Assembly: GCA_964016885.1 (NCBI GenBank)
Contig: OZ024742.1
Coordinates: 266,910,001 to 266,974,000 of the forward strand
Direction of reading: 5' to 3'
Length of the DNA: 64,000 bases
From: Eledone cirrhosa
Lineage: Eukaryota
Position numbers and translations under genes: made by a program. A model generated the notes under the pieces. The model saw only the letters and a program-made list of their open reading frames with translations, was not told the DNA's origin and ran no database searches. Positions 14,010 to 38,895 of the stretch are shown piece after piece; the stretch's first letter is position 1; the number at the start of each line of letters is the position of its first letter.

Positions 14010-16663
14010 TAGGTTATATGTTAATAATGAGATATAAAATAGACAGATCTGGTAGAGTTGTTGAACTACACACCTACACACATAAATGAATAGTTTATAA
14101 TGGTGAAGGCAGCTACTTACTGGAAGTGTTGATAACAAAGAATTGTGCAAAGATTTGCCACAAAAGCAGTGAATAACATATCTCAGGTATTGGATGGCCA
14201 TTGACACTCAAGAATTCCTCCAATATTTGATGGGTTTTGCTTTTCATCCCGCAAAGCGTTCGAAAAATAGCCCTCTTCACCAAGTCAGCTTGGTGGGGTT
14301 GCTGGTTTAGTCACCGATGACCTGGCTATGAGACAAATTGTACTGGGCTACATGCTAACAGTAGTGCGCATGGGTTATTTGAACCCCACCCCCATTCATG
14401 CACGCATACACACACACACAGACACACACACACACACATATATATATATTGAGAGAGAGAGAGAGAGAGAGAGAGAGAGGGAGAGAGAGAGAGAGAGAGA
14501 GAAACAGAATTAATGATTTGCTCGTTTACAATCTTTAAACACTAAAACATGTTCAAAATGAAATTAATAAAATGTAAACTGATTTGAGTGGCATCTGCTG
14601 AAGTGAAATTAAATCGAACAACACGAATTAATTACCATCAATAATATTCTTAATTTAATTATTTCTTAATTAAGATTGACGCTTCATAACAAGTATACTG
14701 ACGTATTCTGCTCAGGGTCACGTCCGATTCGGAACAGCAATAGTGTATGCGTTAGAGCGATGCACTCTCTACAAACAATAGCAATAATGAAGATTTAATT
14801 AATTAAGAGATAAGAGTAAAACAGAGTTGCCTAGGGAGACATTGGAAAACCTGTACCAAAATATTAATACACAAATAAACAGGAGTAAATTTATAAGTAA
14901 CATTTGAAGGTGACCTCATTCAAATAAAAGTTTCTTCAATAAGTACAAAATGCAGTAGACGTAATGCGGCACCCAGTTGAACATCATCACCAGCTTCTTG
15001 GCTGACGTTAGTAGAGCTCACTATGTTGCAAACGTTTGGTGTAGGTTTCCATCGACCAATCCTTGACGTCAAGAAAAAGAAAAAGTCACGAGTTCTGTAC
15101 CCCGCCCTGATTAACAAAACAAAAAATGTATATTGCATTCACTAACTTGCTATACACCGACAGAATATTCTCTATGTATTTCACTGTTCATAACACAGGA
15201 AAGTAACAATCTTTTCCATGATCTATTCTATGAATTAATTGTTGCCGATGGCAGATCATTGCTAGTTTCTTGGTTTAGCAGCTGCACATGTGGAATGCTC
15301 ATTTTAGTTAATTACGTGGGAATAAGCAGATGAGGATATATTGGATTGCTGGATGATAATACGTTATTGTTGTGCTTTTGTTACTTATGAGGATGATGAT
15401 GTTCATGTTAGTGACAATGATGTTGTTGCTACAATTTAGTCCAGCGTTCAGGTCAACTCTGATCTAGCAGATATATAATTCAGGATATATTATAATACAA
15501 GAGCTATATTGTCTCATGAGCTCTTTGTTTCGAGGGTGTTACAGTGTTGTTTGGTGGTGATATCGCTGCACATTATAGCATTTTGAGAAACCATGCTTCC
15601 GTGTTGAGTGTTTCGACAGCTTTTCAAGCTACGTTCATCGTCTTATCTGGGGGGAAGACATTTGGTGTTCAAATCGTACTATGGCTAGAGATAGAAGTAT
15701 CATTTTAAAGTCACTCTAATGTCGATAGGGTATTTGATTAGGGATAAAAAAGTCTGAATCATTTTTAAACATAACGATAACACAAGGATTTGGTAATGCA
15801 TAATAGAGTGAACGAACGCATATGAAGAAAATTTAGTTTTGAAATAGGTAGAATGTATGTTAGCTGCTTTAATATTAGAGCCATTGTTTTAGTATAGCAA
15901 GAGGCTTTATATACATTTTATTTTGAGGAAAGAAGAAAGTCTAACTATATGTAACCACCTTAAAATACAAAGTTAACTGTGTAAGTATGTCATTAAATAA
16001 TCGTAGAGCTAGATGCTGCCAACATGTAATTCTACGATGATATTAATTATTTATGAAACTAGAATGACAAGATGAAAACAAATTGTGTGTATAATTGCAG
16101 AAAGGTCATCGGCTTCTATTGTATAAATGTCAGAAGAATCGATTTAAGCGTATTTATTTATTTCTATAGTTGCTTATCTTTACTGTTTGAAAAAAACATT
16201 CTATTCCTATAACACGGATAATGAATCATAACCCCTCCTATATCAAACACACATGCTATTTTATAAAATGCACGGAATGAGCAAACGGGGAAATTTCAAC
16301 GTGGTCGCTAGACATTTTTGAAATAGCAGTCATATCTCCTCAAATCGTATCTTACCCTTATATATAGGGCGGCGTGTATATATTCTTGGCCACAACTAAA
16401 ACGATTTTGATCACAGATGAGCATATTTCAATGCACAAGGCTTAACTGTGGCTAAAAAACTACAACATGTAACAGCAATGTCTGTGTGCATGTGCATATA
16501 AGTAAGATTAAGATTTTGCATATTGTCATAGAGGAGATGAAATATAAAACATAATTATACTAAATCATGAATAAATACTCAAACCACGTTATAAACAACA
16601 TGTACCAAAAAAATAAAAATAAATGGCAGTTGTTAAATCTTCTTATATTCTGTTTATTTCTAG

Positions 16664-16990
16664 CATTATCATTGATTCAAGATGGCGCTGATTTGAGCAA
16701 AATAATTTGTCAGGGAGAAAACATACCAGAATTTACGACGCTAGCATTATTAGCACCAATTTCTGAAGATGAGCCTGAACTTGAAGTAGTTTGTAGTCAA
16801 TCATCATGTGAAACATCTAGTTGGTGGGCTTCCAGACTACAAATTGAATTAAGCATCAACGAAACATCTTTCAAAACCCGCTTCACCTTCTCGTCTGATA
16901 CGTGTTCAGTTTCTAAACAATTCAGTTGTTTTCTAAAGATGATGTTAATTGATTCTGTATTGGAAGATTCGAAAAGGTTTACCATCATAG
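16664..16990 (+). CDS. Exon encoding a V-like Ig domain of a putative Ig-Ig-chitin-binding protein
   Basis: Acceptor tttatttctag, donor G|gtaagg, 327 bp, phase 1-1, no stops. IICQG...VVCSQSSC...WASRLQI...TCSVSKQFSCFL. The upstream in-frame ATG at 16600 gives a signal-peptide-like stretch. Confidence 0.75.
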
Positions 16991-17862
16991 GTAAGGAGTT
17001 AAGAGCTACAATGACATTCCTATTTTATATTAATTTTGTCAATAACATTTTAATACATTTTCTGTACAATTATTTGAAGATGTACTATTGCTGTTTATAA
17101 CGATGATTTGCATGTCATCTCTAATATATGACGCCAGTTAAATTACCATTATCAACATCAACATTACTATCCCTTCATTATTATCATCATCCCCACCACC
17201 ACACCTATAATGCTCATTGTTAACAACATCGTCTATATATATATATATATATATATATATATATCCATATGTGGTTGACGGCTTTTACATGAATATGTAT
17301 GTTGTGTGTACATATATATTTATTTACATATATGTAAGCATCTGCGTATATGTATTTAGTATGCATTTAGTATGCATGTATCTGTATAATCGTTTACATG
17401 TATTTATGCATATTTATATAATTGTGCGAACATGTGTGAATATATCTGTATAGATATTTCTTTCCTTCTGCCAATCCCTCCAAACTTTTCCTTCTTTTTC
17501 ACTAAACCCGTACACACCTACCATCTCATTAAGCACCTGCCTTCCACTGAGCTGTTAAGAGTTTATGGGTAAGTCCATTACCATCATCCTCTTCACACAG
17601 TTCCCCTCCCTCCACCTCTACCAACCTGTCCACTTAATTACCCTTCCTTAGTTAAATTGCCCTCTTCCACGGCGAGTTTATATATATATATATATATATA
17701 TATATATATATATATATATATATATATATATATATATATATATATATATATATATGTGTGTGTGTGTGTGTGTGTGTGTGTGTGTGTGTGTGTGTGTGTG
17801 TGTGTGTATACTCATTTACTCATTTACCTGTTCCAGCTGAGGCCATGTTGGGAGGAAAAGAC

Positions 17863-36704: not shown

Positions 36705-37039
36705 AGGGAACGTCTTCACGAACCAAAGTATCGTCTTCCTGTTTTCCAGATTGATTTTTTTTTAGTTTAAGAAGATCCCGTTAAGGTTGAAAGCAGCGAT
36801 TCTTTGCTTAAACATGAATATGTTATTTGAAAAACTTTAATATGTTATTTGAAAAACTTTAATCTGTTATTTTAATATATATATATATAATTATATTTTC
36901 ATGGACAGATAGTTTTGCATACACAATAACAAAATATAAAGAAACGTATTTATTTCACGAGGCTCGATAAGGATAAATATATATCAAATATATAAGAACC
37001 CTAGAGCAAATCCCGAGCAACGCCGGGCCATTATGCTAG
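36705..37039 (+). mobile_element. Penelope pLTR pieces followed by a Helitron 3' end
   Basis: 36707-36875 matches the reverse complement of about 18180-18345; 36958-37006 matches 18125-18172; cccgagcaacgccggg and CTAG|T at 37012-37039. Confidence 0.65.
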
Positions 37040-38676
37040 TAAATGTATAAAGATGCCTTTATCAGGATTTAAACTCTAATCTATCACAAGAAATTTGGAT
37101 TTAATTAATGACCGAGCCATACATGCTTTTGTTATGTAGGGTCTTACATCCAGGTCCACAGCTATCATGGATATGAAACGTTATGCAACGCATCGTACAT
37201 CTTATTAATTAATCAAATACGTTAGAGTGTATGTTTGCCTATTTTGTAAATCGAAACCTGAATCAGAGCCGGAATAGTTTGAAATCCTATTTCATCAGTT
37301 CTTTCTTCTCCCTTTCTTGACAGATAAAAAAACATATTTTAGAGTAAGATTACATACATTGATTCGAGTATGAAATTACCAATTGATTGAATCAAATAAA
37401 GTGAGTCTAAGAATCAATATCAGAAGGCTACATTCACCTCAACGTAATTACTTGATTTCCGGTTCCAAATACCATTCGGACAGACTCCTTTGTTCTTTCT
37501 ACATTGGTATAAGAGCAGATATTTATTGTGCAAAAGTATATTCGATTGAATGAATCTGAGTATATGACTGGTATTTAGTTTATTGACTTGAAGAAAAATG
37601 GAAGGCAATATCTATCACAAGTGAAATTTGAACGTAATGTGAAAATTACACAAGCCTAGTGATCTCAATTTTTAACAGCCGCACTAACGTCTTCGTTACT
37701 TAATCAATAATTTCAAAGTTTTCCTTCCCTCGACTACGCACAACATCGGAGAAAGTACTCCATTACTAATCTTTCGGCTACTTACTAAATTTTATATCAA
37801 CCTAGTGTGTAATAACATTCAAGTTTAGTATATGTAAAAATCTGAATATTTTATCATGGATTTGAAGATATGAAGTGTATATCTTCAGATTGAAGTGGTA
37901 TATATTATATGGTCTCTGAAGAAGCAAGTGCCCAAGTGAGGCCCAGTTTGTTTTATGAGCTGAAAGTGTGAACCCTTCACTCAACTCTCGCCAATTATGA
38001 AATATTTTAACACATTAAACCATATAGAATCTATTTATCGTTAAACTGATAAATCCGTAGACACGATACTGCACCAGCGGCAATATACGATCTACACAGC
38101 CGATGTTTAAAAGGTCGAGATATCGGGTAATTCAGCGACAAGCAAGTCTTTAGCCTACTTAAAAGAGACGACGCGAAAAGTGCGATTAATAATGTAATAT
38201 ATCACTTTGATCAGAGAGATCACCTTCCCTGGAGTCTATTTGCAAATATGAAACTTCAACTATGACAAAGTATTCTGTGAAAGTATTAGGATAAATATAT
38301 TGAAAATGTTCTGTATTACATATGAGGTACGAAGATCGATAATGCAATTGATATTATGCACCCCCCCCACACACATATGTATACATATAGATATATACGT
38401 GTATAGATTTATAAACGTACATATTCGTGTATGTGTGTATGCATGTATGCATATATACATATGCATATATACATATACATATATATGTATATATGTATAT
38501 ATATATATATATATATATATACATATATATATATATATATATATATATATATATGTGTGTGTGTGTGTGTGCTCACATGTATATTTTCATGTATGTATGT
38601 GTGCATGTGTGTGTTTGTGTTTTTTTAATTTCCATTGTAAAAACAGAAATATTTATGACAATATCTACAATTTCAG

Positions 38677-38895
38677 AAGATTACTGCGCTGATGGGCGTA
38701 TCTTCAAAGTCTACCCGTTTGATGCCTGCAGTGAATCGTTCGTGCATTGTGCAAATAACTATAGCTACATTGCAAATTGCCCAGACCATCATTGCATTGA
38801 TGCAGATATCGGAATATGTGTAATGTGTGACTGTGATCAGAGAAATTCAGTAACTGGAACATATGAGAAAAACAAATCAACTTTACGATACGAAG
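38677..38895 (+). CDS. Exon encoding a chitin-binding peritrophin-A (CBM14/ChtBD2) domain
   Basis: Acceptor tttcag, donor G|gtatgt, 219 bp, phase 1-1. Cys spacing C-x13-C-x6-C-x9-C-x12-C-x4-C in YCADGRIFKVYPFDACSESFVHCANNYSYIANCPDHHCIDADIGICVMCDC. Confidence 0.8.

What the first reader, a model, noticed from the sequence alone, without database searches (positions are those of the whole stretch)
16600..38895. Hidden Ig-Ig-chitin-binding gene with VCBP-like architecture in a probable mollusc genome
Seen: three stop-free + strand exons with AG/GT sites, all phase 1-1 and multiples of 3 (327, 321 and 219 bp), separated by 9-12 kb repeat-filled gaps. They join in frame to Ig + Ig + CBM14. Known: two Ig V domains plus a C-terminal chitin-binding domain define the VCBP gut immune effectors of amphioxus and Ciona; gastropods have IgSF-lectin fusions (FREP/CREP/GREP). 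Inference: this may be a cephalopod Ig-chitin-binding immune, mucosal or matrix protein assembled convergently by phase-1 exon shuffling, since the second Ig looks C2/I-like rather than V. I cannot confirm that the exons are co-transcribed or that the family is undescribed.
Basis: partly seen in the sequence, partly recalled or inferred. Interest (0 to 1): 0.9.

Follow-up and report, generated by a model that had tools for sequence, protein, structure and literature searches.

The report
Octopus membrane mucin with chitin-binding tip
The three exons are real, but they are the tail of a much larger octopus-type gene whose predicted product is a membrane-anchored mucin ending in antibody-like and chitin-binding-like domains; it likely fastens cells to chitin linings rather than being a secreted VCBP-type gut immune protein.

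Summary
The three exons are confirmed. They are exons 7-9 of a 10-exon, 246-kb, apparently single-copy gene with an intact 1,373-aa frame. Orthologous database models in O. sinensis and O. bimaculoides join them in the same order (63-95% identity). The predicted protein is not VCBP-like. It has no signal peptide. It has one N-terminal membrane helix, a SEA-like domain with a GSVVI cleavage-type motif, an 813-aa Ser/Thr stalk, two Ig-like domains and two CBM14-like domains. Domain 2 is C-type Ig (good support); domain 1 is at best a degenerate V-type. The window's CBM14 scores below Pfam's cut-off and lacks both conserved aromatics; the second, outside the window, passes. The Ig-Ig-CBM14 cassette is not a cephalopod invention. 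A Crepidula membrane protein and a Pinctada fragment are homologous, so it is likely ancestral in shelled molluscs. The most likely role is a cleavable tether between epithelial cells and a chitin cuticle or matrix (inferred, untested). No RNA was available, so co-transcription rests on database models. Verdict: a real and apparently undescribed architecture, a new variant of known parts, moderate interest.

The parts
1..16663 (+). 3' part of intron 6 (26,628 bp in all). Upstream of the window lie exons 1-6: exon 1 G000:C3:266754669-266754755 (ATG, predicted inner tail), exon 2 266802392-266802596 (membrane helix, aa ~76-94), exons 3-5 266806779-888, 266813744-802, 266854297-451 (SEA-like domain, GSVVI), exon 6 266897597-266900035 (813-aa Ser/Thr stalk)
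   Evidence: exon bounds and frame; hydropathy 2.69, next peak 1.32; stalk 36.7% S+T, no Cys; Pfam SEA E 4.3e-05, 24.0 bits against cut-off 26.4 on the O. sinensis ortholog, E 0.09 on own exon 3 alone
16664..16990 (+). Exon 7, phase 1-1: domain 1, all-beta, probably a degenerate V-type Ig domain
   Evidence: AG/GT and open frame; 64/63% to Octopus orthologs; weak score against an HMM of three Crepidula V domains (own 5.0 bits, 2 of 500 shuffles as high; O. sinensis 14.3 bits, 0 of 500; O. bimaculoides 9.6, 1 of 500; hhalign 1%); AF2 all-strand but pLDDT 42; no Pfam, Atlas or PDB-sequence hit
16991..26128 (+). Intron 7, 9,138 bp, microsatellites
26129..26449 (+). Exon 8, phase 1-1: domain 2, C-type (C1/C2-set-like) Ig domain
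   Evidence: ESM Atlas 0.94 to C1-set/C2-set_2 clusters, 10 of the 10 best family hits in one clan; hhalign 91.7% and HMM 23.0 bits (0 of 500 shuffles) to Crepidula/Pinctada C domains; 79/76% to orthologs; no Pfam hit
26450..38676 (+). Intron 8, 12,227 bp, microsatellites and retroelement remnants
38677..38895 (+). Exon 9, phase 1-1: first CBM14-like domain, atypical (8 Cys; Ile and Met where canonical CBM14 have aromatics)
   Evidence: Pfam CBM_14 15.5 bits, below cut-off; 14.4 bits against an HMM of 20 own-genome CBM14, best of 500 shuffles 8.9; 95% identical to both Octopus orthologs
38896..64000 (+). 5' part of intron 9 (51,748 bp in all). Downstream of the window lies exon 10, G000:C3:267000644-267000843: second CBM14 domain and stop codon
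   Evidence: Pfam CBM_14 25.1 bits, over the 22.1 cut-off, E 1.9e-05; 91% to orthologs

Best explanation
The three exons are exons 7-9 of a 10-exon, 246-kb gene predicted to encode a type II membrane mucin (short inner tail, one membrane helix, SEA-like domain, 813-aa Ser/Thr stalk, two Ig-like and two CBM14-like domains) that likely tethers epithelial cells to a chitin cuticle or matrix. Shown: the exon chain, the open frame, orthology and the order of domains. Inferred: the helix acts as a signal-anchor, leaving the C-terminus outside; the O-glycosylated stalk holds the tip above the cell surface; the Ig pair acts as a rigid spacer or dimerises; the terminal CBM14 (more likely the second) grips chitin; self-cleavage at G|SVVI in the SEA domain would let the outer part detach under stress or when a lining is shed. 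The Ig-Ig-CBM-CBM cassette is likely inherited from the ancestor of shelled molluscs; SEA and the long stalk were seen only in octopods.
For: Ten exons, all GT-AG, give 1,373 aa with no internal stop. A search of the own genome with the O. bimaculoides protein puts 10 of 11 matches, in order, on one strand of C3; the eleventh is a weak hit with stops. Between the exons the long open frames look like retroelement pieces, not another host gene (read by eye; Pfam RT/endonuclease hits). Of 11 database proteins in the three ortholog clusters, 6 join domain 1 to 2 and 7 join domain 2 to the CBM. No signal peptide, one helix, and 35 of 35 N-glycosylation sequons lie C-terminal of it. CBM exons are the most conserved (95%, 91%) and the stalk the least (50-53%). 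Homologs: Crepidula UTK45853.1, named 'chitin-binding and immunoglobulin domain containing protein', E 1e-6, also with one N-terminal helix and no signal peptide; Pinctada KAK3095387.1 partial, E 6.6e-4. The first CBM shares a derived pattern with Crepidula CBM1 (KxYPFx..C, extra Cys, no aromatic). Foldseek of the ortholog model: 46 of 47 rows shown are Ig-superfamily chains by title, mostly V-C tandems (Necl-4, Fab, Neph1, B7-H3). G|SV cleavage motifs in SEA domains: PMC2958558. Octopods have chitinous sucker and stomach linings, the sucker lining being shed periodically: PMC8688392, PMC7396502.
Against: No transcript evidence from this species; the ortholog proteins are predicted models whose RNA support I did not see. 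The window's CBM lacks both aromatics that 20 of 20 and 18 of 20 control CBM14 carry, and the second CBM keeps only one (controls were 20 of the top full-length matches among 129, so biased to consensus). Neither CBM is among the 129 genome-wide CBM14 matches. SEA is below Pfam's cut-off and no SEA structure appeared among the Foldseek rows shown. Both AF2 models are low-confidence (pLDDT 42 and 32) and no Foldseek hit reached E 0.001. Charges flanking the helix are uninformative in the octopod protein (2 basic on each side). Two models end after domain 1 and one skips it. That the Crepidula protein is a shell-matrix protein is only inferred (supplement unreadable). No expression or binding data.
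Confidence: 0.58

Rival explanations
1. A membrane-bound or shed mucosal immune effector working like VCBP: the Ig pair binds microbes, the CBMs hold the protein on host chitin or bind fungal chitin, and SEA cleavage releases a soluble form.
For: The C-terminal order Ig-Ig-CBM14 matches VCBP (PMC6109156); molluscs fuse IgSF domains to several lectin domains (PMC8878817); the Ig exons diverge faster than the CBM exons (63-79% against 91-95%); short isoform models lacking the CBMs exist, as reported for VCBP3.
Against: Apparently single copy, whereas VCBPs form a polymorphic multigene family (PMC2632668); domain 2 is C-type; no VCBP among the PDB sequence or fold hits shown; the Ig divergence is about that of the SEA exons (65-74%).
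Confidence: 0.17
2. A glycocalyx or adhesion mucin whose CBM14-like domains have lost chitin binding and now bind a protein or another glycan; the V-C pair mediates nectin/B7-like cell contact.
For: The first CBM lacks both conserved aromatics and has two extra Cys yet is 95% conserved; best fold hits are nectin-like, Neph1 and B7 tandems; exon 2 (inner tail and helix) is 85-87% conserved, suggesting a partner inside the cell.
Against: The second CBM passes the Pfam cut-off and keeps one aromatic; the first CBM has other conserved aromatics (F-K-V-Y-P-F) that could form a different binding face (inference).
Confidence: 0.21
3. The three exons form a separate, short secreted gene and the link to the upstream membrane/mucin exons is an artefact of gene prediction.
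For: Introns of 27 and 52 kb flank the three exons; one UniRef model ends after the mucin exon (P0013).
Against: In-frame phase-1 junction conserved in the models of two species (DVSP-T/S-L-x-L); the Crepidula homolog also carries an N-terminal membrane helix before the same cassette; no other host gene was seen between the mucin exon and exon 7.
Confidence: 0.04

Closest known systems
Octopus orthologs LOC118764280 (XP_036360733.1, O. sinensis), LOC106874046 (XP_052825458.1, O. bimaculoides), CAI9725906.1 (O. vulgaris)
   Same: Same exon order and architecture; 50-95% identity by exon for the first two.
   Different: All are named 'uncharacterized' or 'hypothetical', with no Pfam domain precomputed; the O. 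vulgaris model lacks the N-terminus, domain 1 and the second CBM.
Crepidula fornicata 'chitin-binding and immunoglobulin domain containing protein' UTK45853.1 (and Pinctada KAK3095387.1, partial)
   Same: One N-terminal membrane helix, no signal peptide, then a homologous Ig-Ig-CBM-CBM cassette with the same atypical first CBM.
   Different: No SEA domain or long S/T stalk; a long (~250 aa) predicted inner tail; four further Ig domains and a third CBM. Probably one of the 185 shell-matrix proteins of PMC9365450, not verified.
VCBPs of amphioxus and Ciona
   Same: Two Ig domains followed by CBM14 at the C-terminus.
   Different: VCBPs are secreted, ~350 aa, V-V, one CBD, V domains split over 2-3 exons with phase-0 splicing, multigene and polymorphic (PMC2632668, PMC6109156). 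This gene is membrane-anchored, V?-C, two CBMs, one phase-1 exon per domain, apparently single copy.
SEA-domain membrane mucins (MUC1 type) and type II transmembrane serine proteases (enteropeptidase, matriptase)
   Same: SEA-like domain next to the membrane with a G|SV motif; mucin stalk (mucins); TM-SEA type II start (proteases).
   Different: MUC1-type mucins are type I (recalled); the proteases end in a trypsin domain, which is absent here and replaced by Ig and CBM14 domains.
Gastropod VIgLs (FREP/CREP/GREP/QREP/HREP)
   Same: One or two IgSF domains joined to a C-terminal carbohydrate-binding domain (PMC8878817).
   Different: Those use fibrinogen, C-type lectin, galectin, C1q or H-lectin domains, not CBM14, and are secreted without a stalk (the latter recalled).
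Invertebrate intestinal mucins / peritrophins; Ciona Ci-GFM1
   Same: Mucin region plus a chitin-binding domain lining a chitin barrier (Ci-GFM1: PMC6109156; insect IIM recalled).
   Different: Secreted, without a membrane helix, SEA or this Ig pair (for IIM recalled).

Membership tests
VCBP | Secreted: signal peptide, no membrane anchor | tested here: not met
   No N-terminal hydrophobic stretch (max 0.5); one helix at aa ~76-94 in the own model and both orthologs
VCBP | Two tandem V-type Ig domains | tested here: not met
   Domain 2 is C1/C2-set-like; domain 1 only weakly V-like
VCBP | Single C-terminal chitin-binding domain, nothing else | tested here: not met
   Two CBM14-like domains plus SEA and an 813-aa stalk
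VCBP | V domains split over 2-3 exons, splicing frame 0 (PMC2632668) | tested here: not met
   One exon per domain, all phase 1-1
VCBP | Polymorphic multigene family | tested here: inconclusive
   One locus found in own-genome searches (lower bounds); polymorphism between individuals not tested
VCBP | Gut expression, bacterial and chitin binding | not testable with these tools
   Needs RNA data and binding assays
CBM14 / ChtBD2 domain | Pfam PF01607 above cut-off | tested here: inconclusive
   Exon 9: 15.5 bits, below 22.1; exon 10: 25.1 bits, above
CBM14 / ChtBD2 domain | Aromatic residues after Cys4 and Cys5 (recalled as the chitin-binding face) | tested here: not met
   Exon 9 has Ile and Met, exon 10 Tyr and Pro; controls 20 of 20 and 18 of 20 aromatic (alignment, read by eye)
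SEA-domain membrane mucin | SEA domain beside the membrane | tested here: inconclusive
   Pfam SEA E 4.3e-05 but 24.0 bits against cut-off 26.4; strand-helix-strand pattern at low pLDDT
SEA-domain membrane mucin | G|SVVV-type cleavage motif | tested here: met
   NGSVVI in the own model and both orthologs; motif variants in PMC2958558; cleavage itself untested
SEA-domain membrane mucin | Long Ser/Thr-rich, Cys-free region in one large exon | tested here: met
   813 aa, 36.7% S+T, 3.7% Pro, no Cys, one 2,439-bp exon
Type II transmembrane serine protease | C-terminal trypsin-like domain | tested here: not met
   The frame ends at the second CBM; no protease hit in Pfam
Gastropod VIgL (FREP/CREP/GREP) | IgSF + fibrinogen, C-type lectin or galectin domain, secreted | tested here: not met
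   No such domain in the Pfam scan of the orthologs; membrane helix present
Molluscan membrane Ig-CBM14 proteins (Crepidula UTK45853 type) | N-terminal helix followed by a homologous Ig-Ig-CBM-CBM cassette | tested here: met
   phmmer E 1e-6 over residues 782-1014 of the ortholog; BLASTP E 5e-09 and 3e-08, pairwise; domain-wise HMM tests

The most novel reading that the evidence does not exclude
An undescribed family of membrane-anchored Ig-CBM14 proteins, ancestral in shelled molluscs, is the cell-surface anchor for chitin scaffolds (shell matrix in snails and oysters). In octopods it gained a mucin stalk and a self-cleaving SEA 'quick release' that lets chitinous linings such as the sucker cuticle be held and then shed.
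Probability: 0.25. Interest if true: 0.7.

Novelty: new variant of a known kind. Interest (0 to 1): 0.45.

Why it matters
How molluscan epithelia hold on to, and let go of, their chitin linings is little known (my own knowledge). A conserved membrane protein with a chitin-binding tip and a cleavable base is a concrete candidate that can be tested by expression and binding. It also shows that Ig + CBM14 fusions likely arose separately in molluscs and chordates, so domain order alone does not identify a VCBP. The gene is already in the databases as uncharacterised, and each module is known, which limits the surprise.

Tried and rejected
RNA evidence: no RNA holder listed. The three listed runs, one sample, cover exon 8 and its intron flanks in one piece, so they behave as DNA and show no junction. 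PDB sequence searches with each exon and with a profile gave nothing meaningful. AF2 of domain 1 was too poor to use; its fold searches never got into the queue, and the VIA second look on the full model did not run either, so the aligned range of the Ig hits in the model is unknown. Word-index searches found no further homologs (limited to stated lengths), so only one gastropod and one bivalve homolog are in hand and no tree was built. A mini-exon for 7 residues that the orthologs have between exons 2 and 3 was not found; the frame is intact without it. The alternative last exon of the short Octopus isoforms was not found in 258 kb of the own genome. Rejected: the 178-aa frame around exon 7 as a stand-alone gene, since conservation stops at the splice sites. 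Look-ups of earlier scan notes returned nothing. No complex was predicted.
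Full report
Observation. Pfam gives no hit for the two Ig candidates and a sub-threshold CBM_14 hit for the third (15.5 bits, cut-off 22.1). A search with exon 8 among longer proteins returned three Octopus proteins at 76-80% identity. Their clusters hold 11 sequences: 6 join domain 1 to domain 2, 7 join domain 2 to the CBM, 2 end after domain 1, 1 skips domain 1, 1 ends after the mucin exon and 1 is a single-exon fragment. 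The named ones are predicted models called uncharacterised or hypothetical; I did not see their transcript support. The host is therefore an octopod-type cephalopod (inference from these identities).

The whole gene. Searching the own genome with the O. bimaculoides protein gave 11 matches, 10 of them in order on the + strand of C3 around the window. With the neighbouring DNA I fixed ten exons. They span 246,175 bp, all introns are GT-AG, and the frame gives 1,373 aa without an internal stop. There is no signal peptide. One strong hydrophobic helix lies at aa ~76-94, and 35 of 35 N-glycosylation sequons lie C-terminal of it, which points to a type II membrane protein. Exons 3-5 encode a SEA-like domain (Pfam E 4.3e-05 on the ortholog, 24.0 bits against a cut-off of 26.4) with the motif NGSVVI. 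Exon 6 is an 813-aa stalk with 36.7% Ser+Thr and no Cys. Exon 10, 27 kb beyond the window, is a second CBM14 that passes the Pfam cut-off (25.1 bits) and carries the stop. Identity to O. sinensis/O. bimaculoides is 53/50% for the stalk, 64/63% and 79/76% for the Ig-like exons, 95/95% and 91/91% for the CBMs. Long open frames in the introns look like retroelement pieces. Each of the two Ig exons finds only itself in the genome; the CBM exon finds one more match at E 0.84. These counts are lower bounds.

Domain 2: yes, C-type. The ESM Atlas gives 0.94 to C1-set/C2-set clusters, and it matches the C domains of the Crepidula and Pinctada homologs (hhalign 91.7%; HMM 23.0 bits, 0 of 500 shuffles). 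Domain 1: uncertain. The Atlas does not recognise it, AF2 gives only strands at pLDDT 42, and against three Crepidula V domains the three octopod copies score 5.0, 14.3 and 9.6 bits (2, 0 and 1 of 500 shuffles as high; hhalign 1%). Its C-terminal half aligns with the V-type motif of the Crepidula domains (LTFxxxxC...YxC) and it sits in the same position. An AF2 model of the O. sinensis ortholog is poor (mean pLDDT 31.8; 43-63 over domain 2 and CBM1). In Foldseek 46 of the 47 rows shown are Ig-superfamily chains by title, mostly two-domain V-C pieces aligned over about 200-280 columns, but none reaches E 0.001 (best 1.7e-03). This is weak, consistent support. The window's CBM is CBM14-like (14.4 bits against an HMM of 20 canonical domains from the same genome, best of 500 shuffles 8.9) but has Ile and Met where 20 of 20 and 18 of 20 controls have aromatics (the 20 controls were taken from the top full-length matches of 129). 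That these aromatics bind chitin is recalled, not tested.

Not a cephalopod invention. phmmer of the O. sinensis protein over 1.84 billion representatives gave 4 hits: itself, an unnamed SEA-exon fragment, Crepidula UTK45853.1 (E 1e-6) and Pinctada KAK3095387.1 (E 6.6e-4). The Crepidula protein is named 'chitin-binding and immunoglobulin domain containing protein', has V-set, Ig_3 and weak CBM_14 hits, one helix at ~251-269 preceded by basic residues, no signal peptide, and 25 of 29 sequons beyond residue 250. Its first cassette runs Ig-Ig-CBM-CBM and its first CBM shares the atypical pattern. The cassette and the membrane anchor therefore likely predate the split of gastropods, bivalves and cephalopods. 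This rests on two homologs (the bivalve one partial, without the anchor) and no tree. PMC9365450 deposited 185 Crepidula shell-matrix proteins in GenBank; UTK45853.1 is probably one of them, but the supplement that would show it could not be read.

How it likely works. Shown: exon chain, frame, conservation, domain order. Inferred: a signal-anchor leaves the C-terminus outside; the glycosylated stalk lifts the tip; the Ig pair spaces or dimerises it; the CBMs, more likely the second, grip chitin; the SEA domain may cut itself at G|S, as SEA domains with GSVVV, GSVIV or GSVIA do (PMC2958558), making the tether releasable. Octopods have chitinous sucker and stomach linings, and the sucker lining is shed periodically (PMC8688392, PMC7396502). 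I put this tether reading at 0.58, a non-chitin adhesion or glycocalyx role at 0.21, a VCBP-like immune role at 0.17 and separate genes at 0.04.

Comparison with VCBP. VCBPs are secreted proteins with two V domains and one chitin-binding domain (PMC6109156; PMC7916673; PMC4757023), encoded with split V exons, phase-0 splicing and strong polymorphism (PMC2632668). This gene fails four tested features. It is not a VCBP; whether a shed form works like one is open.

Novelty. Seven library searches for this combination gave 0, 1, 0, 1, 1, 3 and 4 papers. In the passages I read none describes a molluscan membrane Ig-CBM14 or SEA-mucin-Ig-CBM14 protein. I saw only the listing for PMC5379566, PMC13394694 and PMC11767717. 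The library lacks most subscription papers, and unread supplements of shell proteome papers may list such proteins. What I saw of each paper: passages of PMC7916673, PMC2632668, PMC6109156, PMC9261976, PMC8700984, PMC4660305, PMC8878817, PMC2958558, PMC7396502 and PMC8688392; passages plus one of six parts of the main section of PMC9365450; abstract and outline of PMC4757023.

Verdict. Interest 0.45.

Noticed in passing
window 4015-5328 (-): 438-aa frame of a LINE-type retroelement remnant in intron 6 (RVT_1 E 1e-05, zf-RVT E 0.001).
   Followed up: partly
window 61624-63999 (-): LINE-type remnant in intron 9: endonuclease domain (Exo_endo_phos E 3.3e-06) after an ORF1-like frame with a zinc-knuckle-like motif; similar copies recur through the introns.
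   Followed up: partly
window 54309-57896 (-): Broken frames that look like an LTR retrotransposon (integrase- and RT-like by eye; no Pfam hit for the two pieces scanned).
   Followed up: no
P0009 and P0011 (O. sinensis X4, O. bimaculoides X3): Both species have a model that ends after domain 1 with a similar ~45-aa last exon, giving a form without domain 2 and the CBMs; this exon was not found in the own genome.
   Followed up: partly
G000:C3:266802392-266802596 (exon 2): The exon for the predicted inner tail and helix is 85-87% conserved and holds a YIPI (Y-x-x-hydrophobic, recalled as a sorting motif) and a Cys just before the helix.
   Followed up: no
G000:C3:220854244-220859280 (+): A single 1,958-aa open frame with at least 7 CBM14 repeats, peritrophin-like.
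   Followed up: no
G000:C6:74997243-75210832: A dense cluster of more than 20 CBM14 matches within about 215 kb; a smaller one lies at C1:297.50-297.62 Mb.
   Followed up: no
window 25965: A>T difference in intron 7 in two of three contig sets of one sample; none in exon 8.
   Followed up: no
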